DNA of 63,230 nucleotides, the filler included, from Welwitschia mirabilis (Eukaryota): the NCBI GenBank assembly GCA_051453625.1. It is 6 parts of one record of this genome, joined end to end, with 100 filler letters (N's around TTAATTAATTAA, not from the genome) between each part and the next. Parts side by side here need not be neighbours in the genome. Positions count along the whole stretch, not along the records: positions 56,133 to 63,230 come from JBOZIK010000001.1; 5 more parts are not named here. The stretch is one strand, 5' to 3'. A program made the translations under genes and the position numbers. Position 1 is the first letter of the stretch, and every line of letters starts with the position of its first letter. Positions 12,831-63,230 of this stretch are shown here, piece by piece. The notes beneath the pieces were generated by a model. The model did no database searches and was not told the origin of the DNA. It was given only the letters and a program-made list of their open reading frames with translations.

Positions 12831-13141
12831 CAGCAAAACTTACCAGCAATCCTATCTCGTCTCCAGAGAGTTCCTAGGGCCCTCTGACCCAAATTTCATT
12901 TTAAAGAAAAAAGCCATAAAAACCCATTAAACAAAACCATTGAAAAAAATTGTTGATGGTGTTGACTTAACCATCCAATCTCAATTAATCTTTTTTCTTT
13001 TTTTTTATTATTCCACGCCCACTCCCGTCCAGGACCGTCCTTTCGGCCCGCCAAGGGACGGAGGGACAGCGGGACCCGCCACCACCGACGACTTTCCTCC
13101 GTCAAAAAAAAGGACCTCTTCTTCGCCAGCCCGGCCCAAGG

Positions 13142-14083
13142 TCACATGGAGCCCTGCGACCGCAGCACCCAGTGTTCGCCTCGCGGCTCCACTCTGAGCC
13201 CCCGGAGCTTCGCGAAGAGCTGCACTGCCCGGCGAACCCCGTGATTATCAAACTTCGTGTGATAATCGTGCCCAAAAATGACCGACCGCCCGCCGGGCGC
13301 CAAAAGCGCGTACGCCGCATTTATGTCTGACCACGCCGACAAAAAGTCATGTGCGGCATCGACCTCCACGAGGTCGCCGTAGATGCCCCACTCGCAAAGG
13401 GCGCGCAGCGCCGCCGTCGATGAAAACGGCACGGGCAGCACCGTGTCCGTCAGGTTTTCCGTCACGACGTTTTGCATGAACTGGTAAAGCAGAGTGTTGT
13501 CGCCGTTAACGTCGCGGATGGACTTGAACAGCTTGCGGCGGAAGCCGGGCCAGCCGCGGAAGTCGTCGACGCAGAGCACGCTGACGTTGAATCCGAGCCC
13601 GCGCGCCAGCGTGGCCATATGCAGTGCCGACGCGCCCAGGAACGTGCCGACTTCAATTATCACACGTGGCCGAACCTCGCGAATGAGGTCCGCGAACACC
13701 GCCGACGTGGAGCCCCAGCCCTTGACGCGCCGCCGCTGGAGCAGCCCGCGCACGTGCGGAGGAGGGAACTCGGAATAGGGCGACGTGCCGTTGAATATCT
13801 CGTCAATGAGCTTTTGGCGCACGTGGGCCGCGGACACTGGCGGCAGCCGGCAGGTTGCGTTGTAGGCAGCTAGCTGGCCGGTGTCCGCGGGGTTCGCGAG
13901 GCCGCACTCCAGTCCCCGCGGCAGCCGCGGCGGCGGCGGTGGCTGCTGCTGCTGCTGACACGGCGCTGAGGGGGTGCTGACTAGGAGCGGTGACGTGAGC
14001 ATGCCAATAATGTAGGCTATGGCGGTGAGGGCGGCTGTGGATGTGCAGGCTCTTCGCCTGCCGAATTGCCCTTCCATCTTCAT
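13142..14083 (-). CDS. Plant class I SAM-dependent methyltransferase (Methyltransf_24-like), predicted type II membrane protein, 313 aa from the first ATG
   Basis: Uninterrupted GC-rich ORF. SAM motif I IIEVGTFLGASA, plus VLCVDDFRGW, DLVEVDAAHDF and VIFGHDY. Hydrophobic N-terminal segment AALTAIAYIIGMLTSPLLV followed by a Q/P-rich stem. The ORF-track start at 14089 is TTG; the first ATG is at 14083. Confidence 0.93.
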   Translation of the reverse strand: MKMEGQFGRRRACTSTAALTAIAYIIGMLTSPLLVSTPSAPCQQQQQPPPPPRLPRGLECGLANPADTGQLAAYNATCRLPPVSAAHVRQKLIDEIFNGTSPYSEFPPPHVRGLLQRRRVKGWGSTSAVFADLIREVRPRVIIEVGTFLGASALHMATLARGLGFNVSVLCVDDFRGWPGFRRKLFKSIRDVNGDNTLLYQFMQNVVTENLTDTVLPVPFSSTAALRALCEWGIYGDLVEVDAAHDFLSAWSDINAAYALLAPGGRSVIFGHDYHTKFDNHGVRRAVQLFAKLRGLRVEPRGEHWVLRSQGSM

Positions 14084-14366
14084 CCGCAACGTTTCTCTCT
14101 CCGCCTTTTCTTTCTCTCTGTAATATCGTCCCTCGAGAAATTAAAATTACATTCTTTCAAAAAATAATAATATATGATAGTTGAGTTGAAACTTTATTGA
14201 TTATACCTCTCTTAAAACTATAGCGGCCAATATTGCCTCGACAGCCAATATCGTCTGAACAAATGATTTAATTACCCTCTACGTTCATATAGTATGTCAA
14301 TCACTTCATCTAAAAATTAAGTCTTCATAGTATATGAATCAAGTCTTCACAGATCCACCACATAAC

Positions 14367-27790: not shown

Positions 27791-29874
27791 TAGCACTATC
27801 ATCATAAGAAACTTTTTATATGGATCTATAAGAATTTTAAGAATTCCCTAACAATCCATAATGAATATAAGAAATGGAAATATTTTCAAACTGAAGTTTG
27901 AAAATTAATTCTCCTCATTTATTCTTTAAGAATAATGTCTTGATCTAAAAAATCCTAGAGTTTATATAAACATAAATGCAAATCATAACCATTTTATTTT
28001 TAATTTTTGTTATTTTATTTAATTTCATGAACCTTTCTAGCTTATTAGAAATTTGTTTAAACAATGTTTAACTTTAAATCTTAGGAATAGGAATTAAAGG
28101 CATTTCTTTAGAAACATTCTTTCTATTAAGAATAAAAGACTTCCATTTTATAAGAGTTATTCTAAAAAAAATAAGGATGAACAAAAAGTACAATGATCAT
28201 GTCCTTAACATTTGAAAAGATGAGATGTAAAATCCATCACAGCAAAAAAAAATATTTTTAAATGTTTCTTTGTTAGCAAATTTTTTATCACGTTAGCTTT
28301 AGAGTTTATCTAGAAATGATCTTTCTCCAAATGAGATAAACTTTCCAATAAGGTTAAAGGCATATCTCTTCTTCGTTCATTAGGAAATTTATTTATTCAT
28401 AATAGTTACCAAAGAGCTCCATCTATAATAATGCCAAATACAAATCCATTATTATATTATCTTGAGTATTATTCATTAGGATTTCATTTGAATATGACAG
28501 TGGCTCCTTAGTATTTGTAACAATGCACTAATTAGACAAGTTGATAACTTACTATTTAAGCATGATTATAGTGTGCTCATCTAGGGTCAAATTCCTTATA
28601 TTGTTAATCACATTCTTGATACCCTTAATGAAGAAGTACTCAATCAAAGTTCCATTTCCTTCTTTCCTTCCATACACATCATTTTTTAAATCTTTTGTAT
28701 CGAATAAGATATCATAGTTTTGATAATGAGAAGATTTTATTTGGGATAGCTTTTTAAAGTCTTCTATATTTTAAGCATAAGGTAGGTTCATTAAGTAATA
28801 GATTTTATTAAAATCATAGAACTATTCCATCATTTGTCAAATAAGATCTATATTAAATTATACTCTTTTAATGGTGAAAAATATATAGTTTGAAAAGTAG
28901 AAATCTCAAGCTATACTTAATATATGGGAAAATGATTTGTAAAAATATGTCATTGTCTTGATTAATAACAAAAACATTCTTGATATTCATTACCTTTTAA
29001 TATTTTATGCTAGGAGTAAGTAATTACCCCAAGAATAAGCTACTTTTTCTTTTTTCTCTTCTTTTAAAAGAAACTAATTCATTAATGGTTTACAATTTCA
29101 TGAAGAAGGGAATTGCCCTACAATTCATGGAGAGAAACCACTAAATTAAATTTTATAAAGAGCCATACATTTATAAGAGTGTAGCCTAATTGAAAGAGAA
29201 GGAAAAGAGTACATGCCAACATCTACTTATGTTAAATGTCAAAAGCATGTTGGAGAATCTCCCATAATTATAAAGATTCTACAAATCAAAGAGGTAATGG
29301 ATATGAAACATGTACGGTAATTAAGATTAAATAATATAAGATGTTCTCTTAAAAAAGTAATTATAATATTCAAAATTTTTGATGTTAAATTTTTTATAAT
29401 ATTATTACCTTACATTAATTTATATCATATAATTAAGCTTAATGTAATGAAAGTATTAAATTTTAATATATGTTTAATCTATATCTTTATTTAATGATTT
29501 TATATATAAATGTTAAACAATATTTATAAATATAGTAAAATATTTAAATAAAATATAATACATAATAAATATATAATTATGTATATAAATCTTAGACCAC
29601 ATAAATAAGAAATGTAATATGTATAAACATAAGGAGGAGAATTAGGTTAAGAGTTTTAATTCAAGAGAAAACGAACTGGGTGGTAAGGAGGTGGTTGATA
29701 AAGGCATCATTATAATATCAACTAAAAGTGAGACTTTTAATTGAAGCTGACTTGTCTTTATGCGTGAGCAGTGGGGCAGGTGATTAGAAGCCAAAGCCTG
29801 CCAGCTTCAGAAGGCCAGCAGGGTACTATCAAGATGAGGAAGTGCAATTAAGATGGTGGAGGAAGAGAGTGTGG

Positions 29875-31960
29875 ATGGCGTTTTGCAAGATCTCCTCTTT
29901 GCTCCGCAGTTAGGGAGTCTTTTCTCTCTGTTTACCCTACTTCTCACAGACTTTCAAACAATGCTTTTTCTATGGAGGTACTGCAGCTGGCATTCGGGGA
30001 TGTCAATGCAATTTTCCTATGGCGTCTCACTGAGCGCTAGGCCTGTGCTCGCAGTGTCTGCACACCCTTAAAAGAATCTTCTGCTGTGATAATGGCCCCC
30101 TTCTCTGGCTTCCTCTTTCGGTGCTCACTTCTTCAGCATAATGCACCAGAAGGCCTTTCTCCCGTGTCCTCTTGAGCCTTGTTTAGTGTTTTCTCCCCCA
30201 CCATGTTGGGTGTTTTCCTTACCTCTCAAAGAGTGTTCTTATTCAAAGTTTTGTGAGTGCGTCCAGAAGATGCTTCTCAGAGCTTTGCTAACCATGTGGA
30301 AAATGNNNNNNNNNNNNNNNNNNNNNNNNNNNNNNNNNNNNNNNNNNNNNNNNNNNNNNNNNNNNNNNNNNNNNNNNNNNNNNNNNNNNNNNNNNNNNNN
30401 NNNNNNNNNNNNNNNNNNNNNNNNNNNNNNNNNNNNNNNNNNNNNNNNNNNNNNNNNNNNNNNNNNNNNNNNNNNNNNNNNNNNNNNNNNNNNNNNNNNN
30501 NNNNNNNNNNNNNNNNNNNNNNNNNNNNNNNNNNNNNNNNNNNNNNNNNNNNNNNNNNNNNNNNNNNNNNNNNNNNNNNNNNNNNNNNNNNNNNNNNNNN
30601 NNNNNNNNNNNNNNNNNNNNNNNNNNNNNNNNNNNNNNNNNNNNNNNNNNNNNNNNNNNNNNNNNNNNNNNNNNNNNNNNNNNNNNNNNNNNNNNNNNNN
30701 NNNNNNNNNNNNNNNNNNNNNNNNNNNNNNNNNNNNNNNNNNNNNNNNNNNNNNNNNNNNNNNNNNNNNNNNNNNNNNNNNNNNNNNNNNNNNNNNNNNN
30801 AATGATGGCTTTCAGATTCAAGTTTAAGTCTACATTGTTTCAGCTAGCAACCTGAGATTGACGGCATTTACTTCTCTGGTAATATAACTTTGAAATTCTC
30901 TGGCAGTGCTGACCTATGTACCAGGTGGGCAACTTGAGTCAGAAAGGAGGAGGTGGCATCATGACCCCAAGGGGAAGAAGGGAGGATGGGGCTGGTTTTT
31001 GGAAGGAGGTGTCCTTTTGCGAGCCGGGGGGCTCTGCATGGCTCGGGCGCATCCAACACTGAAAGCAACCGTATTCGAATAAAGAGGAAGCAGCAGATGG
31101 CGTTTTGGAGGGGCTTTTCTTTTGTTCGGCAGGGAGGGAGTCTTTTCTCTCAGTTTTTCTCCTACTTCTCGTCGATTTTTCAAAGAATGCTTTTACTATG
31201 GAGGCACTGCAGCTGGCATTCGGGGGTAATATCAACGCAATTTTCCCTATGGCGTCTTGGGAGCGCTTGGCCTGTGCTTGCAGTGTCTGCACATTACTTT
31301 GTTACAACTCAAAAAAAAAAAACAGAAGACATTACAGAATGGCTGCATTTTTCGCTTGCTCCAGCTTTCCACAGCGATTGGGTGTTTCTGACTTTGTTAT
31401 CCCAACGGAAACTGAATCTGATTCTCTTCTTCCACCCTTAGCTTTCTCCCCTGCGATCCAGAAAACTAATACTTTCGACTCTCACAGCTATATTTTCGGA
31501 AGACACTCTGCACAAATGGAATGTTGTGAGAGTCTCCTTTCGGATATCAGAAAGCTAATGACCGAGCGGATAATGATCTCGTCTTGAGAATTTGGAAAGA
31601 ATGGGAGACTGAGGGAAGTATCAGCAAAGGGGGCCCTTTCTCTGATTTCAGCGGAAGAGCTTTGGCTTTCAAGAACATGGAAGCCGCACAGAATGACATG
31701 AAATACAAAAGGCTATGCCGTNNNNNNNNNNNNNNNNNNNNNNNNNNNNNNNNNNNNNNNNNNNNNNNNNNNNNNNNNNNNNNNNNNNNNNNNNNNNNNN
31801 NNNNNNNNNNNNNNNNNNNNNGAGTTTTCTTATTCAAAGTTTTGTGAGTGCGTCAAGACGATGCTTCTCAGAGCTTTGCTAACCATGTGGAAAATGCTGT
31901 AGCCATTGATGATGTCACTGCATCATCCACATTCACAACTTTGATTGCTACCCCTTTCCA
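29875..31960 (-). pseudogene. Unidentified gene fragment 'A', present as three partial copies
   Basis: A GC-rich minus-strand frame that stays open if TGA/TAG are read as CGA/CAG: WKGVAIKVVNVDDAVTSSMATAFSTWLAKL*EAS...VQTLQAQAKRSQDAIGKIAL..ASCSASIVKAFFEKS. Family not recognised. Confidence 0.45.
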
Positions 31961-32990
31961 TTTCTCATTTCTAATCTTCTATGAATACTGCACACTACTC
32001 TATTACAACTCAAAAAAAATAATAAAGGACATTACAGAATGGCTGCGTCTTTCGCTTGCTTTAGCTTTCCCCAGCGATCAGGTGTTTCTGACTTCATTAT
32101 CCCAATGGAAACTGAATTTGATTCTCCTCTTCCACCCTCAGCTTTCTCCCCTGCGATTTAGAAAACTAATACTTTTGACTCTCATAGCTCTATTTTCAAA
32201 AGCCACTCTGCACAAATAGAACATTGTGAGAGTCTCATTTCGGATATCAGAAAGCTAATGACTGAGTTGATAATGATCTCGTCTTGAGAATTTGGAAAGA
32301 ATAGGAGACTGAAGGAAGTATCAGCAAAGGGAGCCCTTTCTTTGATTTCAGCGGAAGTGCTTTGGCTTTCATGCTGCTCTACCTTCACCGATATCCGGAC
32401 ATATCGCCTGACGTATTAATGAGATTCAGAGTAGAAGCCAGCGGTTCATGTCCTTGCTTTGTTATTATAGGGGCTGGAAGTGAAAAGAACATGGAAGCCG
32501 CATAGAATGACACGAAGTACAAAAGGCTATGCCGTCTCAGTCGAAGCCCAGGCCTTCTAAGGATGTTATAGATCAAGGAGATGTTCTTCAAATGTTTATT
32601 TGAATCCTAGAGAGTATGCCTTAAGCATTTATAACTTCTGTTACAGTGACTTTTTGAGTATTATGAGATTACGTTCTCCTGAGTTCATTGTCATAGACTA
32701 ATCCTTTCCCAGTTCATGACAAAGTAGAGAATAATGGGCTCTTCTGCACTTTAATTTGTCTTTACTTGATGATCTAGGGTTGCTAGTACACCTTCTCATT
32801 GATGGAGGACTTTCACACTACGTCTGATTGTAGCATCCGTAACAGCGAGGATTACCGTGCTTAGTAAGCCATGGACTCTCAAGTTAAGCAACGACATGTG
32901 AAGAGAAAGATTACAGATGCTGAATTCGACGTATGGGATTTTGAACGTGTATTGACGGAAATGAACGCCAAGTATGGGTTTCTCATTTTG
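31339..32990 (+). pseudogene. Unidentified gene fragment 'B' with a Ser/Ala-rich N-terminus, in two copies (ATG 31339 and 32039) plus a downstream exon
   Basis: Plant Kozak context acagaATGGCTGC. MAASFACSSFPQR... and, after a frameshift, LLYLHRYPDISPDVLMRFRVEASGSCPCFVIIGAG. An AT-rich intron-like gap ends at an AG at 32777, followed by GC*YTFSLMEDF...WDFERVLTEMNAKYG. Confidence 0.5.
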
Positions 32991-54100: not shown

Positions 54101-55280
54101 ATTCTAATCATCATTCCACCCTACAAAGAAGGATCTCTTCTCTTTGGATTCTTTATTTTATGTTTTTTCTTGCAATCTATTAGAGATAGAACATTTTGAG
54201 GATATGTGACCTTATCATCCACAAGTCCAACATTCTAGTCTTGAAGTATTAATATTAGAATAAAGTGAAGTGCTATTAGTTGATTTACCTTTGGACTTAC
54301 CTCTAGCTTGAAAGGTGGATGGTTTTCTATAGTTGTCCTTATTGTTGTTCTTTCATGAAAGAATTCTTTTGATTCACCTTATAATGAGAGAAGTTCTTCT
54401 TTTACATCATCTTTAGAGTCATCTCCATTGGATACTTCATTTATTTAACCTTTAGAATTTTGCCTTGAGTTTTCACTAGCTTTAAGAGTGATAGAATTCT
54501 TCTTCAAAGCACCATCTTAAATAAGATTCTTCTTGTAACTCATTAAAGCACCTTGTAATTCTTTAATCTTCATTTGTATTGAAGTTTTTTAATTCTTTTA
54601 TAACTATTGTTTTAGGCATATATTTTAGAGTTAAAAATCTGATAATGTTTTGAATTATCTTAGCCTTTAGAATATTTTTACTAATGTCATGTATGAAATT
54701 TACTATGTTAGAGACTCTTATGAAATACTCATTTATTCTTTCTCCATTATTCATCTTCAGGTTTTCAAATTGATTAGTCTAGATAAGAAGCTTTGCTTAC
54801 TTGACAATAGAGATTTATTTATATGTTTTTACTAAAACATTCTATCTCTATTATGCTATTTAACTATTTGGCTGAATTCCTCCATTGTAAGGGCTGAGTA
54901 AAGATGTTTTTTACCTTTGCATCATATATGAAGGCTACCTTTTCTTTATCTTTCTAGTTTCATCTAGGTTTAATTTGAGTGATGGAGTTCCTTGTGGAAT
55001 CTATGATGGTTTATATATATTCTAAGTATCCATCTTCAATTATTTGCTAAACTTACAACTTAAAAGATTATAAGTAAACTCACATCCTCATCTTTCAATA
55101 GGAATGGTTTATATGATCAATTATGAATGGCACCTTTTTCATAATTTACTTAAAGATGTTACTCCTTCTCATGAATACACTCTTTAACATCACTTGATGA
55201 TTATTTAATTCATAGGAGAAGGGTGAATGCATTATACCAAATGAAAATACACAATAAATAATTTACTAAACTAACACTTA
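51150..55280 (-). mobile_element. Second Sirevirus-like copia copy: 5' LTR stub, PBS, gag, deleted pol, env-like ORF region, PPT, 3' LTR start
   Basis: 53820-55200 aligns with 4030-5480. PBS at 55179-55192. Integrase KIKIIRSDNDIKFNN at 53753-53818. PPT atctccccatttttaatgatg at 51363 abuts an LTR end matching 6760-6883. An artificial join lies at 53697. Confidence 0.85.
52500..53652 (-). pseudogene. Sirevirus extra (env-like) ORF remnant
   Basis: LILSLITFYNILVHGGSYSYYNPMQKFIVYCLLIRIKIDLYFILCMDI resembles the LxxIIxxNILPxxG...FLLYCLL...INLPYLI motif of plant retroelement extra ORFs. It is followed by Pro/Ser/His-rich low-complexity sequence and lies between pol and the PPT. Confidence 0.6.
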
Positions 55281-56132: not shown

Positions 56133-59100
56133 CTATGTTGGCCTCTTCCTCGTCCTCTTCCTAGATCTCTACTTTGGCTTCTACCTCTTTCTATTTCATT
56201 ATATTATCCTCTTCCTTTATAACTACCTCTACCTCTTCCATGGTGGAATGCTTTTAAAGCAGTCACATTTTCTTCCTCGTCTTCCTTGAGGATGAGCTCA
56301 TATTAGACAAGTCTACTAGAGAGTTCTTCAAAAGAAAGAGTTCTTAAGTCTATGATATTATGGAGGCTCATAGCTATGGGCTTCAATGGCTTTGTAAGGA
56401 ATCTCAAGATTTTGACGACAACATCATGGTTTTTGACTTCATAATCTAAATCTTGCATCTTTTTAACTATGTCTTTAACCCTCTGAATGTAAGCTTCTAC
56501 AATTTCATTGTCTTTCATTTTTATGTTGTTAAATTGGGTTTTAAGGTTTTGTAACCTAATGGCCTTTATGTTTTCATATCTTGGTATACCTTATTTAACC
56601 CTCTCAATAATCTATAAGTTGATTCAAATTTACTAATTTTCTTGAATTTACAATCAAGCATGCATGAATGAATAATTGCCATAGCCTTATAGTTTTCCTT
56701 CCTATAGTTGTCATAATCTCTTGTATCATCTTTAGATTTTGCATAGACAAAATNNNNNNNNNNNNNNNNNNNNNNNNNNNNNNNNNNNNNNNNNNNNNNN
56801 NNNNNNNNNNNNNNNNNNNNNNNNNNNNNNNNNNNNNNNNNNNNNNNNNNNNNNNNNNNNNNNNNNNNNNNNNNNNNNNNNNNNNNNNNNNNNNNNNNNN
56901 NNNNNNNNNNNNNNNNNNNNNNNNNNNNNNNNNNNNNNNNNNNNNNNNNNNNNNNNNNNNNNNNNNNNNNNNNNNNNNNNNNNNNNNNNNNNNNNNNNNN
57001 NNNNNNNNNNNNNNNNNNNNNNNNNNNNNNNNNNNNNNNNNNNNNNNNNNNNNNNNNNNNNNNNNNNNNNNNNNNNNNNNNNNNNNNNNNNNNNNNNNNN
57101 NNNNNNNNNNNNNNNNNNNNNNNNNNNNNNNNNNNNNNNNNNNNNNNNNNNNNNNNNNNNNNNNNNNNNNNNNNNNNNNNNNNNNNNNNNNNNNNNNNNN
57201 NNNNNNNNNNNNNNNNNNNNNNNNNNNNNNNNNNNNNNNNNNNNNNNNNNNNNNNNNNNNNNNNNNNNNNNNNNNNNNNNNNNNNNNNNNNNNNNNNNNN
57301 NNNNNNNNNNNNNNNNNNNNNNNNNNNNNNNNNNNNNNNNNNNNNNNNNNNNNNNNNNNNNNNNNNNNNNNNNNNNNNNNNNNNNNNNNNNNNNNNNNNN
57401 NNNNNNNNNNNNNNNNNNNNNNNNNNNNNNNNNNNNNNNNNNNNNNNNNNNNNNNNNNNNNNNNNNNNNNNNNNNNNNNNNNNNNNNNNNNNNNNNNNNN
57501 NNNNNNNNNNNNNNNNNNNNNNNNNNNNNNNNNNNNNNNNNNNNNNNNNNNAATTGGGGAACTTTTCCCTTATCCATGTTTGGAGCACAATCTAATCAAA
57601 AGAAGTAAATCAAGACTTTGATAGGAAGGGGTTAATTTTTAGGAATTTATAAAACAAGATCAATAAGTAGTCAAGAATTTGTTTAATATTTGATGCATAA
57701 ATGTGAAGGTTGAAATTTATTAAGAATAGTACAAGATTAAGAACTGAACATGAATTGGAAGTCAAGAGATTGTCGAGACTTAGACAAGAACTAGATTAGG
57801 AATTGGACAGGATTAAAAAACATTGACATGAATTAGATGTACATTGAAATGGACTAACTGATTTGTAAATTTTTTAGTAGGCTTAAAATGTTTACTTTGG
57901 AGCTTTCAGTGTAAAGGTTTTATTTTAAATTCTAATGAATCTATAATTCAATGNNNNNNNNNNNNNNNNNNNNNNNNNNNNNNNNNNNNNNNNNNNNNNN
58001 NNNNNNNNNNNNNNNNNNNNNNNNNNNNNNNNNNNNNNNNNNNNNNNNNNNNNTTCATATCTCAAATGCTTCAACATCAAATTGGGGAACTTTTTCCTTA
58101 TCCATGTTTGGAACACAACTTAATTAAAAGAAGTAAATTAAGACTTTGATAGGAAGGGGTTAATTTTTAGGAATTTGTAAAACAAGATTAATAAGTAGTC
58201 AAGAATTTGTTTAATATTTGATGCACAAATGTGAAGGTTAAAATTTATCAAGAATAGTATAAAATTAAGAACTAAACATGAATTGGAAGTCAAGAGCTTG
58301 TCGAGACTTAGACAAAAACTAGATCTAGAATTGGATAGGATTAAAAAACATTGACATGAATTAGATGTGCATTGAAATGGACTAATTGATTTGTAAATTT
58401 TTTAGTAGGCTTAAAATGGTTGCTTTGAAGCTTCCAGTGTAAAGGTTTTGTCCTAAATTTTAATGAATCTATAATTCAACAATCAAGAGCTTAAAAAAAG
58501 ATTACTGTAAAAGAACCTTTTATATTTATGAAAGATTTGTTAAAAGTTACCAAGATTTTTGTGCATTAAAAAAATCATATTCTATAAAAGAATTTAAAAG
58601 AAAGCAAAACCCTTGACTATAGATGTTAATACAAGTCAATTATGAAATAAACAATAGAGCTTCAAAGAGACTAGATTTATATAGGAATTTGATCATAGAT
58701 ATAATAGAATTATCCTCATGTACTTGAAATGCTGTCATGATTTATATACTAGAACATAAAAGTTGAATATAAATTTGTTAGTAAGACATAAATAAAAAAT
58801 ATTTTCAAATAAAAAATTTATTTGACACTGGTAAGACATAAATAANNNNNNNNNNNNNNNNNNNNNNNNNNNNNNNNNNNNNNNNNNNNNNNNNNNNNNN
58901 NNNNNNNNNNNNNNNNNNNNNNNNNNNNNNNNNNNNNNNNNNNNNTATTTGACACTGGTAAGACATAAATAAAAAATTTATTTCAAAGTTGAATAGGAAT
59001 TTGTCAGTAATTTTACATAAACAAAAAATATTTTCAAATAATTTTACCAAAATGTATTAAGATTTGAGACCAATAATTTGATAAGAAATAGATAGAATAA

Positions 59101-59629
59101 CTAGGTAGCAAACTAGCACGAAGCCTAGACTATCATGATAGAATTCTTAAGTAATATAGGGCTAGTGGTTAAAATAATACCTATCCTATTCTGATACCAT
59201 ATGAAGGGTTTTAAAACCCAATAAACATACAAAAAATCATAACGACCATAAGACTAAAATGTATCACGCATAAAAAATGAAACTAGGCTAAATAAAAATC
59301 TCACTAGAAATTGAATGACTGCATATAATAAAACTTTTAATTTTCTTTCTGATACTTATCTTTCTTGACTAAAGTTTATACAAATTGATTAATTAAAAAA
59401 AATTAAAACTTGGATTTATGTAGCTTCTAAATTTATTGTAGATTCCTCAGATGGAATTATTTTGTAGAAGAACTTGATGTAGATAAAATGCAAGAGCCTA
59501 AAGTAAATTTGTTCTTTCTAGATGTTATTGTGTATTATAAAATGGTACTAGAGCTAGACACAGTGAGAACATTAATTACTCTTTTTTAAGAATCAAATCA
59601 AAAGGAGAAATAGAGCTTCTATTTTAACA
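56133..59629 (-). mobile_element. Ty1/copia element: LTR (59202-59629), PBS, long repetitive 5' UTR, gag
   Basis: LTR TGTTAAAATAG...CCCTTCA and PBS TGGTATCAGA at 59190-59199. UBN2-type gag at 56133-56753: RLQNLKTQFNNIKMKDNEIVEAYIQRVKDIVKKMQ..VVVKILRFL..DLRTLSFEELSSRL..GRGRG. Confidence 0.88.
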
Positions 59630-60029
59630 TCACCTCCTTAACTTTATTGAAAGAACATGCCTCTTAAATAGATTGTCCAAAGCTTAATTTTGGTAAGGAT
59701 AAGACTTTAGTAAGATTTTACAGACCTAGCATTGCATTCTAGATGATGCTAGCTTAAAGAGATGAGATTTTTCTTATTGGCCTATTCTTGCGTGATTGAG
59801 TCTTATCAGTTCCTATGTTAGATCTTAACTACTTTTGCATTACTAATTTAAGAAGAAGTCCTCCATTGTTTTGTCTAATATAAGCCTAACTTTCCTTATA
59901 CATTATTACCGTTCCTTGTGTCTATGAATCCTAAAATGAAGGACGACCTCATAGTCATTGGGAGGGTTAGAGGAGAGGAGATGAAATGGGTTGTAGGAAT
60001 TCATGAATGAGGATGTTGGTGTAGTTGCA

Positions 60030-60439
60030 ATTGAAGAGGAGTAACCTAGATTGTTTACTATTAGACTACTACTATAGTCTACCATACTCCTCCATCATGT
60101 TCTTTAGGTTCTCATCAGTCATAACAGAGATGAGGGCATCCAGATTCTCATTTGGTAGCTGATACTTGATCCTCACACTAGATTTGAGTATCCTAAAAAG
60201 CTTGCTGACAAGATTAAGAAATGTAATATTTCTTGAAACAGAACCTATCCTACCATCACTGCCTAGATAATAGAGCTGATTGTCATCAATCCTTGGCATG
60301 ATCTTTCCTTCAAAGCTGCATATGAATCTCACTTTGCTAGCACTTAGAACATTAATCCATTTCTTCTGAATTCTAGATTTGTACTCTTCCTAGTTCCTAT
60401 AGATCTCAAGGATGAATCCACAGAATCTGAGTAATCCAT
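60030..60439 (-). pseudogene. 5' fragment of a plant PB1 (octicosapeptide/Phox/Bem1p) domain gene, copy 1
   Basis: MDYSDSVDSSLRS...KVRFICSFEGKIMPRIDDNQLYYLGSD...IKYQLPNENLDALISVMTDENLKNMMEEYGRL..SRLLLF, matching the plant YPDSxDSSPRS / KFMCSYGGKIxPRPxDNQLxY / KYQLPxEDLDALISV family. One frameshift and stops. Confidence 0.92.
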
Positions 60440-61042
60440 CCTTAAAAAATCCTAAAATTTTCCCTTTCAAAAAAGAACAAATCCTTGAACAACTCTAAAT
60501 CTAAACAACATCCATTGAAGACATACACAAAAGAAGAACCCAAATTCAAAAAAAAGGGGCCTACGATAGCATAGGATAGGGTTAGAGAAGAGGGTTGTTC
60601 AGATCTTTGGAAGCGATGGAGAAGGTAATTCTAGAAATTTTTAGATGTATGGAATTTCAAAAGGGCAAAGCCAAGGAATCATAAAAACANNNNNNNNNNG
60701 CTTTGCTATGCTTCCTCTCTATCTTGAAAATTATCCACTCTCCCTCCTTCCCTTTAAATCCCCTAATGCCTTTGCCATTACCTTTGCCATTTAAATGTAT
60801 TGTCATCTAGTCCATTCTTCTTCTATCGCCGATGAAACAAAGTGAGGATTTATAAATGAAGAAAGGGTACTCTTCTCCTTTGGACTTTGTTAGTTATAGG
60901 ATGATATTTGAGGCAAAAGGGAAAGGGAAGAGAAAACTAGGGNNNNNNNNNNNNNNNNNNNNNNNNNNNNNNNNNNNNNNNNNNNNNNNNNNNNNNNNNN
61001 NNNNNNNNNNNNNNNNNNNNNNNNNNNNNNNNNNNNNNNNNN

Positions 61043-61450
61043 ATGATTGCATATAACAAAACTTTTAATTTTGTTTCTGATACTTATCTTTCTTGACTAA
61101 AGTTTATACAAATTTATTGAATTAAAAAAATTAAAACTTGGATCTGTGTAACTTCTAAATTTATTGTAAATTCCTGAAATGGAATTATTTTATAGAAGAA
61201 TTTAATGTAGATAGAATGCAAAAGCCTAAAGTAAATCTATTCTTTCTAGATGTTGTTGTATATTATAAAATTTTACTAGAGCTAGATACAGTCAGAACAT
61301 TAGCTTCTCTTTTTCAAGGATCAGATCAAAAGGAGAAAGTAGAGCTTCTATTTTAACATCACTTCCTTGACTTTATTGAGAGAACATGCCTCTTAAATAG
61401 ATTATCCAAATATTAATTTTGATAAGAATAAGACTTTGGTAAGATTTTAT
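61043..61450 (-). mobile_element. Second copy of the copia RNaseH tail, PPT (61359-61371) and LTR (61043-61358, cut by a gap)
   Basis: Aligns with 59313-59720. NLTKVLFLSKL...KVKEVM is followed by TGTTAAAATAG. Confidence 0.85.
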
Positions 61451-61794
61451 AGACCTGGCATTTCATTATAGATGATGCTGGATTAAAGAGATGAGATTTT
61501 GCTTATTGTCCTATTCTTGCATGATTGAGTCTTATCAGTCTTTATTTTAGATCTTGACTACTTTTGCATTACTAATTTGAGAAGAAGTCCTCCATCATTT
61601 TGTCTGATGTNNNNNNNNNNNNNNNNNNNNNNNNNNNNNNNNNNNNNNNNNNNATTCACTATGTCTATGAATCCTAAAATGAAGGATGACCTCATAGTTA
61701 TTGGAAGGGTTAGAGGAGAGGAGATGAAATGGGAAGCCATTGCCATTATATTGTAGGAATTCACAAATGAGGATGTTGATGTAGTTGCAATTGA

Positions 61795-62209
61795 AGAGGG
61801 GTAACCTAGATTGTTTACTATTAGACTACTACTATAGTCTATCATACTCCTTCATCATGTTTTCTAGGTTCTCATTAGTTGTAACAGAGATGAGGGCATC
61901 CAAATTCTCATTTGGTAGCTAATACTTGATGCTCATACTAGCTTTGAATGTTCTAAAAAGCTTGTTAATAAGATTAAGATATGTAATATTTCTTGAAATA
62001 GAACCTATCCTACTGTCACTACCTAGATAACAGAGCTGGTTGTCATCAAGCCTTAGCATGACTTTTCCTTTAAAGCTGCACATGAATCTTACTTTACTGG
62101 CACTTAGAACATCAACCTATTTCTTCTAATTTTCTAGAAATTCTAGATCTGTACTCTTCCCAGTTTGTACAGATCTTAGGGATGAACCCACAGAATCTAC
62201 GTAATCCAT
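61795..62209 (-). pseudogene. 5' fragment of the PB1-domain gene, copy 2
   Basis: MDYVDSVGSSLRS...EFLEN*KK*VDVLSASKVRFMCSFKGKVMLRLDDNQLCYLGSD...LPNENLDALISVTTNENL. The frame is kept through the domain start, with premature stops. Confidence 0.92.
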
Positions 62210-63230
62210 CCTTGCAAAACCCTAAAATTTTCCCTTTCAAAAAAGAACAAATCCTTGAATAACCTCAAATCTAAACAACACCCATTGAAGACATACATAT
62301 AAGAAGAAATCAAATTCAAAAAAAAGGGGCCTACGATAGCATAGGATAAGGTTAGAGAAGAGGGTTATCTAGATCTTTGGAAGTGATGGAGAAGGTAATG
62401 CTAGAAACTTTTAGATGTATGAGATTTCAAAATGGCAGAGCCAAGGAACCATAAAAACAAACCTAAACCTACTTGGCTAGATTCCAAATCATAATGCTCT
62501 TATGTTTTACTTTGCTATGCTTCCTCTCTATCTCGAAAATTATCCACTCTCCCTCCTTCCCTTTCAATCCCCCAGTGCCTTTACCATTACCTTTACCATT
62601 TAAATGTAGACTATCTTGCATTGTCATCTGGTCCATTCTTCTTCTACCATCGATGAAACAAAGTAAGGATTTACAGATGAAGAAAGGGTACTATTCTCCT
62701 TTAGAATTTATTAGTTACAGGATGATATTTGGGGCAAAAGGTAAAGGGAAGAGGAAATCAAGGTTTTGGAGAAAATTTCTATAAACCCCAGGCTTAGAAG
62801 TGGGTGTTGTTAAAGTGGCCTATGAATTTTTTGTGGGGGATGATTATTACTACCTTAGAAAATTATGCCCATGTTAGATTATGTTACCACACTGGATCAC
62901 TCTTGAAAATTTTTCATAATTTAGATCTCAAAATGCTTAACTTCACCATTTGTATTTTCAGGAATAACTAGAAAGATAATATGTCATGTATAATCACAAA
63001 GCAATCAATAAAAGTATTATTGTCCTGCAAATATCTTATTTCCAAATGCCTCTATCTTCATGGTTAACAAATGAACCTTAAAATATTATTCATGAATTAG
63101 TAGAAAGAAAGCTAATAAGAAATTTATTTTTTGAACATTCAACATAATAGATCTTGTACTACAATTAAAGGAAATCAATGACTTTAAAATGTGACCATAA
63201 AATCAGGATTTAGTAATTATTTTAAGTTGC

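What the first reader, a model, noticed from the sequence alone, without database searches (positions are those of the whole stretch)
59202..62790. Copia element apparently carrying a captured host PB1-domain gene, tandemly duplicated
Seen on the minus strand, twice (60940 to 59202 and 62790 to 61043): a pyrimidine-rich leader, then a PB1 gene from its ATG to the end of the domain (SRL.LF), then a second non-TE fragment, then a copia RNaseH tail (NLTKVLSLPKL..KVKEV), the PPT GTTAAGGAGGTGA and the LTR start TGTTAAAATAG. Host sequence sits where pol should be. Established: LTR elements can acquire cellular mRNA by template switching (e.g. maize Bs1). Inference: this is a non-autonomous copia family transducing a PB1 scaffold domain, which could produce siRNAs against the parent gene or a truncated PB1 protein.
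Basis: partly seen in the sequence, partly recalled or inferred. Interest (0 to 1): 0.85.

Follow-up and report, generated by a model that had tools for sequence, protein, structure and literature searches.

The report
Decayed PB1 gene mosaic beside copia
Two adjacent, long-dead copies of a patchwork made from pieces of a PB1-domain gene and at least one other plant gene are fused to the tail end of a copia retrotransposon; this is an old, silent, local example of a known kind of gene-fragment capture, not an active gene-carrying element family.

Summary
The observation largely holds. Two tandem units on the minus strand (A 60942-59315, B 62757-61043) are 89.4% identical. Each carries the 5'UTR and codons 1-142 of a PB1 gene (Pfam 1.9e-11; about 70% identity to an 814-aa transcript protein, P0003), then a piece of a second expressed gene, then multi-copy copia-like sequence, a polypurine tract and an LTR. 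LTR A runs 428 nt into a tRNA-Met primer site and a copia gag. The "RNaseH tail" label rests on position and copy number only: three homology searches found nothing.

Several partial mRNAs, apparently in one orientation, replace the element's interior. That fits LTR-mediated template-switch retroposition (Bs1-like). It is not a dispersed family: contigs of a genomic run hold about two copies of the PB1/second-gene junction and three PB1 contigs at 60150-60200, read as A, B and the parent. Both copies share three stop codons. 46 of 46 RNA reads at diagnostic sites come from the parent gene. No 5' LTR or primer site lies within 473 nt upstream of B, and a 100-N gap hides the unit boundary. The duplication covered the whole unit at once (K2P 0.09-0.14). 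Verdict: an old chimeric pseudogene of a known kind.

The parts
62210..62757 (-). Unit B leader: the homologue of unit A's leader (parent 5'UTR-like part plus an upstream part).
   Evidence: Aligned to A 60440-60942. Similarity may run a few bases further, to about 62775.
61793..62209 (-). PB1 pseudogene, copy B (P0003 residues 1-142). One frame, with 6 in-frame stops, 3 of them shared with A.
   Evidence: tblastn 101/142 identities, E 1e-53. Three-frame translation.
61654..61806 (-). Copy B of the second-gene fragment plus an unassigned stretch. It keeps 17 nt that copy A has lost and is cut by the N run 61611-61653.
   Evidence: Alignment with A. The RNA loose end at 60002 matches B's extra 17 nt.
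61359..61610 (-). Copy B of the copia-like pol tail, plus the PPT-like AAGGAAGTGA (61368-61359).
   Evidence: Aligned to A 59630-59879 at about 90%.
61043..61358 (-). LTR of unit B: the first 316 nt, from TGTTAAAATAG. The rest is hidden by the 100-N gap 60943-61042.
   Evidence: Aligned to 59315-59629 with K2P 0.111.
60700..60942 (-). Upstream leader of unit A. It includes an 85-nt multi-copy, transcribed motif at 60804-60888 that ends in ATGGAC.
   Evidence: Depth 44/90/46 in X1/X5/X9 at 60822-60888. RNA depth is about 10 per lane. RNA reads and X5 contigs leave the window at 60804 into the same GC-rich sequence. No Rfam match.
60440..60689 (-). Homologue of the parent PB1 gene's transcribed 5'UTR (at least 250 nt upstream of the ATG).
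   Evidence: RNA reads under 90% alike cover 60487-60687 at depth 9-28 per lane. 3-nt deletions at 60527 (30 of 33 reads) and 60548 (36 of 38 reads) are also carried by one X1 contig.
60033..60439 (-). PB1 pseudogene, copy A (P0003 residues 1-142). It has a frameshift near 60368 and 3 stops shared with B.
   Evidence: Pfam PF00564 E 1.9e-11. tblastn. Loose ends of RNA reads decode to exact P0003 peptides at 60369, 60179 and 60075.
59951..60046 (-). Fragment of a second expressed gene ('gene 2'). It overlaps the end of the PB1 homology by 14 nt (60046-60033).
   Evidence: 81 RNA reads leave the window behind 60046 and 108 leave before 60002, into sequence that is not P0003. No Pfam family.
59886..59950 (-). 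Unassigned 65 nt between the gene-2 RNA homology and the multi-copy copia-like part.
   Evidence: RNA depth 0, DNA depth 19 in X1.
59640..59885 (-).
   Evidence: Summed contig depth 123-470 across three DNA runs for 59616-59816 and 50-115 for 59817-59883. It lies directly 5' of PPT+LTR. No homology hit.
59630..59639 (-). Polypurine-tract-like AAGGAGGTGA.
   Evidence: Sequence.
59202..59629 (-). LTR of unit A, 428 nt, TG...CA.
   Evidence: Sequence. An exact X1 contig spans 59363-59681. Other copies' loose ends show the same LTR start and end.
59188..59199 (-). Primer-binding site TGGTATCAGAAT, with 2 mismatches to the recalled tRNA-iMet 12-mer.
   Evidence: 7 matches in the window against 2.7 expected, so weak alone. 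X9 contigs carry TGGTATCAGAGT at the same place after an LTR end ...TTCA.
56306..56751 (-). Copia-type gag of the element that starts at LTR A.
   Evidence: PF14223 E 1.3e-12 on 56306-56590. An adjoining ORF lies at 56569-56751.

Best explanation
This is a fossil chimeric retro-pseudogene of the Bs1 / LTR-mediated-retroposition kind, later duplicated in place.

Inferred origin: during reverse transcription of a copia RNA, the enzyme left the element template in the last roughly 250 nt of pol. It then copied, in the same orientation, a short piece of one cellular mRNA (gene 2). Next it copied the PB1 mRNA from codon 142 up to about the end of its 5'UTR, and then at least one more transcribed piece (60804-60888).

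The resulting patchwork was already non-coding, because the two copies share three stops. It was then duplicated as one block together with its LTR. The likeliest route is unequal recombination between LTRs, giving an internal-LTR-internal-LTR array that continues into an ordinary copia (PBS, gag).

Both copies then decayed by C-to-T type transitions. They are not transcribed at a level seen in poly(A) RNA and have not spread.

Shown:
- the parts and their order;
- the parent gene's identity;
- the low copy number;
- the lack of expression;
- the uniform divergence of all parts.

Inferred:
- the RNA-level origin;
- the LTR-mediated route of the duplication.
For: 1. Host sequence abuts the interior of the element, not an LTR end. 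Copy number drops from 123-315 (59616-59816) through about 50 (59817-59883) to 7-21 (59884-60821) in X1. PPT, a 428-nt LTR, PBS and gag follow.

2. The host part is made of transcribed pieces of different genes.
- RNA reads on 60033-60687 decode to exact P0003 peptides at three loose ends.
- Reads on 59951-60046 have other flanks (81 and 108 reads).
- Reads on 60804-60888 leave into a GC-rich sequence that continues the window's ATGGAC in an open frame.

3. Orientation. PB1 is sense to the copia tail. For gene 2, both loose ends read in phase on the minus strand with 8 of 10 G/C-ending codons each, against 3-5 of 9-10 in the other frames I counted by eye from the strings.

4. The PB1 and gene-2 homologies overlap by 14 nt (60046-60033). 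This is compatible with a microsimilarity switch point.

5. No RNA read skips part of the pseudogene among the joints listed, and the P0003 protein is colinear with it. The copy therefore holds no intron within the 5'UTR plus 142 codons.

6. Parent-like RNA coverage stops at 60687, at the 10-N run.

7. One duplication event. K2P between A and B is 0.089-0.136 in all six segments, LTR included. Of 137 compared residues, 20 changes are shared by A and B against P0003, 17 are private to A and 11 to B.

8. The junctions are real. Exact or near-exact contigs from two samples bridge them: X1 59967-60336 (3 differences), X5 59750-59988 (0), X5 59961-60206 (2), X1 59363-59681 (0).

9. Published precedent. 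Multi-gene chimeras inside LTR elements with microsimilarity are described in PMC5131818 (passages). Complex elements sharing an LTR are described in PMC1950507 (abstract).
Against: - No 5' LTR, PBS or element 5' sequence is seen upstream of either unit. The 473 nt above B (62758-63230) match nothing in the window and hold no PBS-like 12-mer. A's upstream end is in a gap. So 'flanked on both sides by the element', a defining feature of LTR-mediated retrocopies, is unmet or untestable.
- Intron loss could not be tested, because no parent genomic sequence is available.
- The 65 nt at 59886-59950 have DNA depth of about 4 contigs but no RNA. They could be gene-2 intron, which would favour a DNA-level copy.
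- The pol-tail identity has no homology support. In other copies the peptide reads GLQNL(S/T)K where I recall copia elements having AD..TK.
- The gene-2 orientation rests on 20 codons.
- The order A-B across the 100-N gap rests on the scaffold alone.
- Contigs drop rare variants, and only one whole-genome sample was examined in depth, so a few further copies cannot be excluded.
Confidence: 0.5

Rival explanations
1. DNA-level patchwork. A copia element (or a tandem pair sharing an LTR) was truncated by a deletion or double-strand-break repair. The break was filled with short ectopic pieces of genes (PB1, gene 2, others) joined at microhomologies. A segmental tandem duplication of about 1.8 kb or more then followed. 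No reverse transcription of cellular mRNA is involved.
For: The junctions occur in only about two copies. No 5' LTR or PBS is seen upstream. The 65 nt at 59886-59950 lack RNA cover but have DNA depth of about 4 contigs, which could be intronic DNA of gene 2. The uniform A-B divergence fits a block duplication.
Against: All identifiable host pieces are transcribed sequence, and as far as can be told they share the orientation of the element tail. PB1 homology begins in the 5'UTR and is colinear with the mRNA for 650 nt or more without an intron. The pieces replace the element's interior exactly as in published LTR-mediated retrocopies.
Confidence: 0.3
2. One reading: a non-autonomous copia family that carries the PB1 fragment, transposes, and may feed siRNAs or a truncated PB1 protein.
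For: The order leader-PB1-fragment-pol tail-PPT-LTR is what such an element would show. Non-autonomous LTR elements are reported as abundant in the likely source genome (PMC8275611, passages).
Against: Depth over the PB1/gene-2 junction is 10.9 in X1 and 9.4 in X9 against about 5 per single-copy contig. At 60150-60200 there are three PB1 contigs, read as A, B and the parent. A and B differ by 10.6% in every segment, so there has been no recent activity. Stops are shared and A has a frameshift. 0 of 390 RNA reads are 99% or more alike, and 46 of 46 reads at four diagnostic sites are parental.
Confidence: 0.05
3. The gene fragments were gathered by a DNA transposon (Pack-MULE, Helitron or CACTA type) that happens to lie against a truncated copia.
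For: Mosaics of several gene fragments are typical of such elements (recalled; Pack-MULEs are mentioned in the abstract of PMC8277862, search listing). The upstream boundary is unseen.
Against: There are no terminal inverted repeats. The longest inverted pair in 58946-63230 is 27 nt at 70% complementarity. The downstream boundary of the mosaic abuts the pol tail with no recognisable terminus. The mosaic has about two copies.
Confidence: 0.07
4. Assembly artefact: the tandem arrangement, or the LTR-PBS continuity, is a scaffolding or collapse error in a heavily gapped draft.
For: The window has 43 N runs and is 11% N. A 100-N gap separates the units. No listed contig spans a whole unit.
Against: The two copies differ at 168 of 1589 sites and by several indels, so they are distinct loci. 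Contigs from two samples reproduce copy A's internal junctions exactly. A contig with intermediate letters, consistent with B, is present in X1.
Confidence: 0.05

Closest known systems
Maize Bs1 and LTR-mediated retroposition (template-switch retrocopies inside LTR elements; PMC5131818, passages read; Bs1 details recalled and as quoted there)
   Same: Partial exonic pieces of more than one parental gene, including a 5'UTR segment, sit in place of internal retrotransposon ORF sequence next to PPT+LTR. There is a possible microsimilarity at a switch point. Copy number is low.
   Different: Only the 3' side of the element is seen here. There is no 5' LTR or PBS upstream, no TSD and no demonstrated intron loss. 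The copy is dead (shared stops), unexpressed, and amplified only by a local tandem duplication rather than by secondary retroposition.
Complex LTR retrotransposon insertions that share an LTR (Sabot and Schulman 2007, PMC1950507; abstract read)
   Same: LTR A has an internal 3' end (PPT) on one side and an internal 5' end (PBS, gag) on the other. LTR B has the PPT side. This is an internal-LTR-internal-LTR layout.
   Different: Two of the three internal regions are a short host-gene mosaic instead of gag-pol. The PBS side of LTR B is hidden in a gap. Whether the layout arose by recombination after integration or by template switching cannot be told.
Plant PB1-domain (Phox/Bem1p) proteins, represented by P0003, an 814-aa transcript ORF that its source names as Welwitschia mirabilis
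   Same: Residues 1-142, including the whole PB1 domain, are colinear with both copies at 68-71% identity. RNA reads of the run labelled organism A decode to P0003 exactly at three places.
   Different: The copies stop at residue 142 of 814. They carry stops and a frameshift. In the RNA comparison, 106 of 176 differing places are transitions where the window has A/T and the RNA has G/C.

Membership tests
Ty1/copia LTR retrotransposon (for the sequence from about 59885 downstream on the minus strand) | LTR bounded by TG...CA, preceded by a polypurine tract | tested here: met
   AAGGAGGTGA lies at 59639-59630. The LTR runs from 59629 (TG) to 59202 (CA). Other copies' loose ends show the same LTR start.
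Ty1/copia LTR retrotransposon (for the sequence from about 59885 downstream on the minus strand) | Primer-binding site complementary to initiator tRNA-Met just after the LTR | tested here: met
   TGTATCAGAAT-type site TGGTATCAGAAT at 59199-59188, 2 nt after the LTR, with 2 mismatches to the recalled 12-mer. X9 contigs read TGGTATCAGAGT at the same place. The pattern count alone is weak: 7 matches found, 2.7 expected.
Ty1/copia LTR retrotransposon (for the sequence from about 59885 downstream on the minus strand) | Copia-type gag downstream of the PBS | tested here: met
   PF14223 E 1.3e-12 at 56306-56590(-).
Ty1/copia LTR retrotransposon (for the sequence from about 59885 downstream on the minus strand) | RNase H / pol C-terminus homology of the stretch 59885-59640 | tested here: inconclusive
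   The stretch was read through with X at its 5 stops. It gave no hit in the protein collection (13 candidates, none at E 10 or better), in Pfam at E up to 10 or in PDB at E up to 10. Support comes only from position, multi-copy depth and a recalled LTK..L...K-like motif.
Ty1/copia LTR retrotransposon (for the sequence from about 59885 downstream on the minus strand) | Two LTRs in direct orientation with a target-site duplication | tested here: not met
   The only other LTR copy in the window is the partial LTR of unit B. The 3' LTR of the gag-bearing element is not in view (many N runs). No TSD can be defined.
LTR-mediated chimeric retrocopy (Bs1-like) | Partial cellular mRNA sequence replaces internal element ORF sequence | tested here: met
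   The PB1 5'UTR and codons 1-142 plus the gene-2 piece are joined to the multi-copy element tail.
LTR-mediated chimeric retrocopy (Bs1-like) | Element sequence (LTR, PBS) on both sides of the retrocopy | tested here: not met
   Nothing element-like lies in 62758-63230. Unit A's 5' side lies in the 100-N gap. This may be a limit of the window rather than true absence.
LTR-mediated chimeric retrocopy (Bs1-like) | Microsimilarity at switch points | tested here: inconclusive
   The PB1 and gene-2 homologies overlap by 14 nt at 60046-60033. The parents' nucleotide sequences at that point were not available.
LTR-mediated chimeric retrocopy (Bs1-like) | Parental introns absent from the copy | not testable with these tools
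   No genome is held for this window. Only short parental contigs were laid, and their sequences are not shown.
LTR-mediated chimeric retrocopy (Bs1-like) | Secondary retroposition (dispersed copies) | tested here: not met
   There are about two copies of the PB1/gene-2 junction in X1 and in X9 (depth 10.9 and 9.4 against about 5 per contig).
PB1 domain (PF00564) | Profile match above the curated cut-off | tested here: met
   44.2 bits against a cut-off of 23.6, E 1.9e-11, for copy A. The 65-aa ORF of copy B alone gave no family, but tblastn with P0003 covers it.

The most novel reading that the evidence does not exclude
A gymnosperm counterpart of maize Bs1. One copia reverse-transcription event stitched together the 5' ends of at least two or three cellular mRNAs, switching template each time it ran off an mRNA 5' end. 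The product was then propagated not by retrotransposition but as a 'complex element' whose units share LTRs. It would be a dated (tens of millions of years) natural record of multi-template copy choice by a plant copia reverse transcriptase.
Probability: 0.4. Interest if true: 0.45.

Novelty: new member of a known kind. Interest (0 to 1): 0.3.

Why it matters
If the RNA-level origin holds, this adds a gymnosperm case to the few plant examples of LTR-retrotransposon-mediated exon shuffling. It shows three features in one locus: several parental mRNAs, 5'UTR-inclusive pieces, and later amplification through shared LTRs. In practice it is mainly an annotation warning. The 105-aa open PB1 frame of copy A passes Pfam and could be called a gene, yet it is a silent, truncated pseudogene. 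It has no bearing on PB1 function unless small RNAs from it are found.

Tried and rejected
Contigs of public runs were used instead.
- Word-indexed protein searches found nothing in three tries: PB1 ORF with 'longer' lengths (79 candidates, none significant); an integrase ORF from another copia in the window, meant to fetch full polyproteins for a local test of the tail (6 candidates); and the tail itself (13 candidates). That tool missed P0003, which the exhaustive search found, so these blanks are weak.
- Pfam at E up to 10 and PDB at E up to 10 on the tail read-through: none.
- Protein Atlas on the 46-aa gene-2 frame of copy B: best score 0.83, below the lead threshold, all unnamed bacterial clusters. 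Rejected.
- Rfam on 58946-63230 at E up to 1: 0 matches, so the multi-copy 85-nt motif is not a known RNA family.
- A regex scan of the 150 PB1 hits for copia tail or RT motifs found one chance ADPLTK in P0060. On reading, P0060 has a C-terminal half that looks like a protein kinase by eye (no family scan was run) and no copia motifs.
- Earlier findings of this scan: nothing by place or by sequence. A words query was malformed and not repeated.
- No RNA holder was listed for the stretch. The laid poly(A) RNA run showed only parental and related-copia reads. Small-RNA libraries were not available.
- I first read the loose ends at 59643 as 'other LTRs'. On inspection they are the same LTR start with a different PPT region, so that reading was dropped.


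Full report
**Setting.** The window is a heavily gapped draft: 43 N runs make up 11% of it. GC is 31% of the called bases and CpG observed/expected is 0.32. Of 147 ORFs of 55 aa or more, 7 match a Pfam family. Five of these are retrotransposon domains, one is a methyltransferase in a 65%-GC island, and one is PB1. No whole genome is held for the window.

**Likely source.** The best full-length relative of the PB1 fragment is P0003. Its source names it as a Welwitschia mirabilis transcript ORF. RNA reads of the runs labelled 'organism A' decode to P0003 exactly at three places. [quoted passage not shown] The window therefore probably comes from that species or a close relative. No tool states this.

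**The observation.**
- On the minus strand, unit A (60942-59315) and unit B (62757-61043) are each other's only look-alikes in the window.
- They share 1589 aligned bases with 168 mismatches (135 transitions, 33 transversions), plus several indels.
- Copy A's 105-aa open frame matches PB1 (PF00564) at E 1.9e-11.
- An exhaustive profile-free search of 1.84 billion representatives gave 1154 hits at E 0.001 or better. P0003 stands out with 72% identity over its residues 28-125.
- tblastn of P0003 against the window covers residues 1-142 of 814 and nothing else. Copy B is in one frame with stops. Copy A has a frameshift near 60368.
- Both copies read RL***SNSKQSRL where P0003 has RLQQQQQQSNSKQSRL.
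- Over 137 comparable residues, 84 are the same in all three sequences. Twenty differ from P0003 in the same way in A and B, 17 differ only in A, 11 only in B, and 5 differ in all three. The sequence was thus already a pseudogene when it was duplicated.

**The element side.**
- Downstream of copy A lie AAGGAGGTGA (59639-59630) and an LTR from TG at 59629 to CA at 59202.
- Two bases further lies TGGTATCAGAAT (59199-59188).
- A leader with a 528-nt tandem repeat follows, then a copia-type gag (PF14223, E 1.3e-12, 56306-56590).
- The PBS-like match is weak by count (7 found, 2.7 expected). However, contigs of run X9 that align up to 59181 continue with an LTR end ...TTCA and TGGTATCAGAGT at the same position.
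- LTR A thus has a PPT on one side and a PBS on the other. Unit B shows the same PPT and the first 316 nt of the LTR before the 100-N gap.

**What public reads add.** The stretch 58946-60942 was laid at 80% likeness or more with contigs of X1 and X5 (organism A, two samples) and X9 (organism B), and with raw poly(A) RNA reads of X16.

(a) Copy number.
- Exact single-copy contigs have depth about 5 in X1.
- Summed depth is 97-448 over 58946-59481, 27-40 over 59482-59615, 123-315 over 59616-59816, about 50 over 59817-59883, and 7-21 from 59884 to 60821.
- The LTR ends, the PBS region and the roughly 250 nt before the PPT are therefore multi-copy. The mosaic is not.
- Over the PB1/second-fragment junction (60018-60084), depth is 10.9 in X1 and 9.4 in X9, about two copies.
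- At 60150-60200, X1 has three contigs. One is like A. One (252 nt, 37 differences, depth 3.7) carries every letter that the RNA reads carry, and I read it as the parent. One is intermediate, as expected of B.
- A few positions reach 25.7. One or two PB1 paralogues may contribute there.

(b) The junctions are real. Contigs with 0-3 differences bridge 59967-60336 (X1), 59750-59988 and 59961-60206 (X5) and 59363-59681 (X1).

(c) Expression.
- Of 390 RNA reads laid, 0 are 99% or more alike, 2 are 95-99%, 47 are 90-95% and 341 are under 90%.
- At four sites where only the parental contig differs from the window (60180, 60184, 60185, 60195), 46 of 46 reads carry the parental letter.
- Neither A nor B is seen in this RNA sample, of which a quarter was read.

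(d) The leader.
- Parental reads cover 60487-60687 at depth 9-28 per lane. They carry two 3-nt deletions that one X1 contig also has.
- At least 250 nt upstream of the ATG at 60439 is therefore the parent's transcribed 5'UTR.
- Coverage ends at the 10-N run at 60690.

(e) The second fragment.
- 81 reads that align from 60046 downward, and 108 that align down to 60002, run on into sequence that decodes to nothing in P0003 or the other 151 proteins held.
- The 60002 overhang matches the 17 nt that copy B has and copy A lacks.
- This piece comes from another expressed gene. Its homology ends near 59951.
- The next 65 nt have no RNA cover.

(f) The 60804-60888 motif.
- It is multi-copy (depth 44, 90 and 46 in the three DNA runs) and transcribed.
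- RNA reads and X5 contigs leave the window at 60804 into the same GC-rich sequence. That sequence continues the window's ATGGAC in an open frame.
- It may be the 5' end of a third gene. Rfam finds nothing.

(g) Direction of decay. Of 176 places where RNA reads differ from the window, 106 are A-to-G or T-to-C. The window has lost G/C relative to the live genes.

**The 'RNaseH tail'.**
- I could not confirm it by homology. The stretch 59885-59631, read with X at its five stops, finds nothing in the word-indexed collection, in Pfam at E up to 10 or in PDB at E up to 10.
- An attempt to fetch full copia polyproteins with an integrase ORF from elsewhere in the window also failed.
- In those copies the peptide is GLQNL(S/T)K. 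From memory, copia elements have AD..TK there, so the label stays an inference.
- By copy number, the host/element junction lies near 59885-59950, not at 59700-59760.

**How it arose.**
- The layout has partial transcribed pieces of two or three genes, in the same orientation as the element tail as far as can be judged. They stand in place of the element's interior and next to PPT and LTR.
- This is the layout described for LTR-mediated retroposition. There, a portion of the internal ORFs is replaced by retrocopies, several genes (including a 5'UTR segment) can be joined, and switch points show microsimilarity. Maize Bs1 is the plant example (PMC5131818, passages).
- Here the PB1 and gene-2 homologies overlap by 14 nt (60046-60033), and the pseudogene is colinear with the parental mRNA for 650 nt or more.
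- The defining other half is missing. No LTR, PBS or element 5' sequence lies in the 473 nt above unit B. Unit A's start is in the gap. Intron loss cannot be tested.
- A DNA-level patchwork at a broken element therefore remains a serious rival.

**The duplication.**
- It took the whole unit at once. K2P between A and B is 0.113 and 0.105 (the two leader parts), 0.136 (PB1), 0.089 (gene 2 plus the unassigned stretch), 0.122 (tail) and 0.111 (LTR).
- With the rate the genome paper used for this lineage (2.2e-9 per site per year, T = K/2r; passage), this is roughly 25 million years. That is probably an overestimate for methylated repeats.
- Because each unit ends in an LTR, and LTR A continues into an ordinary element, unequal recombination between LTRs is the simplest route. 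The outcome is a 'complex element' in the sense of PMC1950507 (abstract).

**Verdict.**
- The thing is a single old locus with two decayed tandem copies, not a transducing family.
- It cannot make a PB1 protein, and no poly(A) RNA from it was seen.
- It is a new, incompletely documented member of a known kind. Interest is modest.

Noticed in passing
window 13145-14140 (-), within the GC island 13001-14000: A 332-aa open frame with a Methyltransf_24 domain (PF13578, E 8.3e-9) lies in a 65%-GC kilobase. The rest of the window is about 30% GC. This is probably the only live gene in the window.
   Followed up: no
window 57552-57851 and 58080-58379: A 300-nt direct repeat at 93% identity with 528-nt spacing lies in the leader between the PBS (59188) and the copia gag (56751). 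N runs interrupt it.
   Followed up: no
window 60804-60888 (and 62625-62709 in unit B): This 85-nt motif is multi-copy in all three DNA runs and transcribed. RNA reads and X5 contigs leave it at 60804 into the same GC-rich sequence, which continues the window's ATGGAC in an open frame. It may be the 5' end of a small gene family. Rfam finds no match.
   Followed up: partly
window 54566-54778 (-) and 56306-56751 (-): Two different copia-type gag fragments lie 1.8 kb apart on the same strand. They are too unlike to be copies of one element, which suggests nested or abutting elements.
   Followed up: no
proteins P0001, P0002, P0004: The three best-scoring hits apart from P0003 are predicted proteins from other sources with two or three near-identical PB1-containing repeats in tandem. 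Tandem duplication of PB1 gene segments, or gene models run across such duplications, may be common.
   Followed up: no
window 29838-32606: This stretch holds unusually long open frames on both strands (up to 174 aa) at about 40% GC. Parts look repeated by eye (similar peptides at 31491-31712 and 32185-32415). No Pfam family.
   Followed up: no
window 60690-60699: The 10-N run stands for more than 10 bases. Copy B has 39 further bases here, and an exact X1 contig reaches 44 nt into it.
   Followed up: partly
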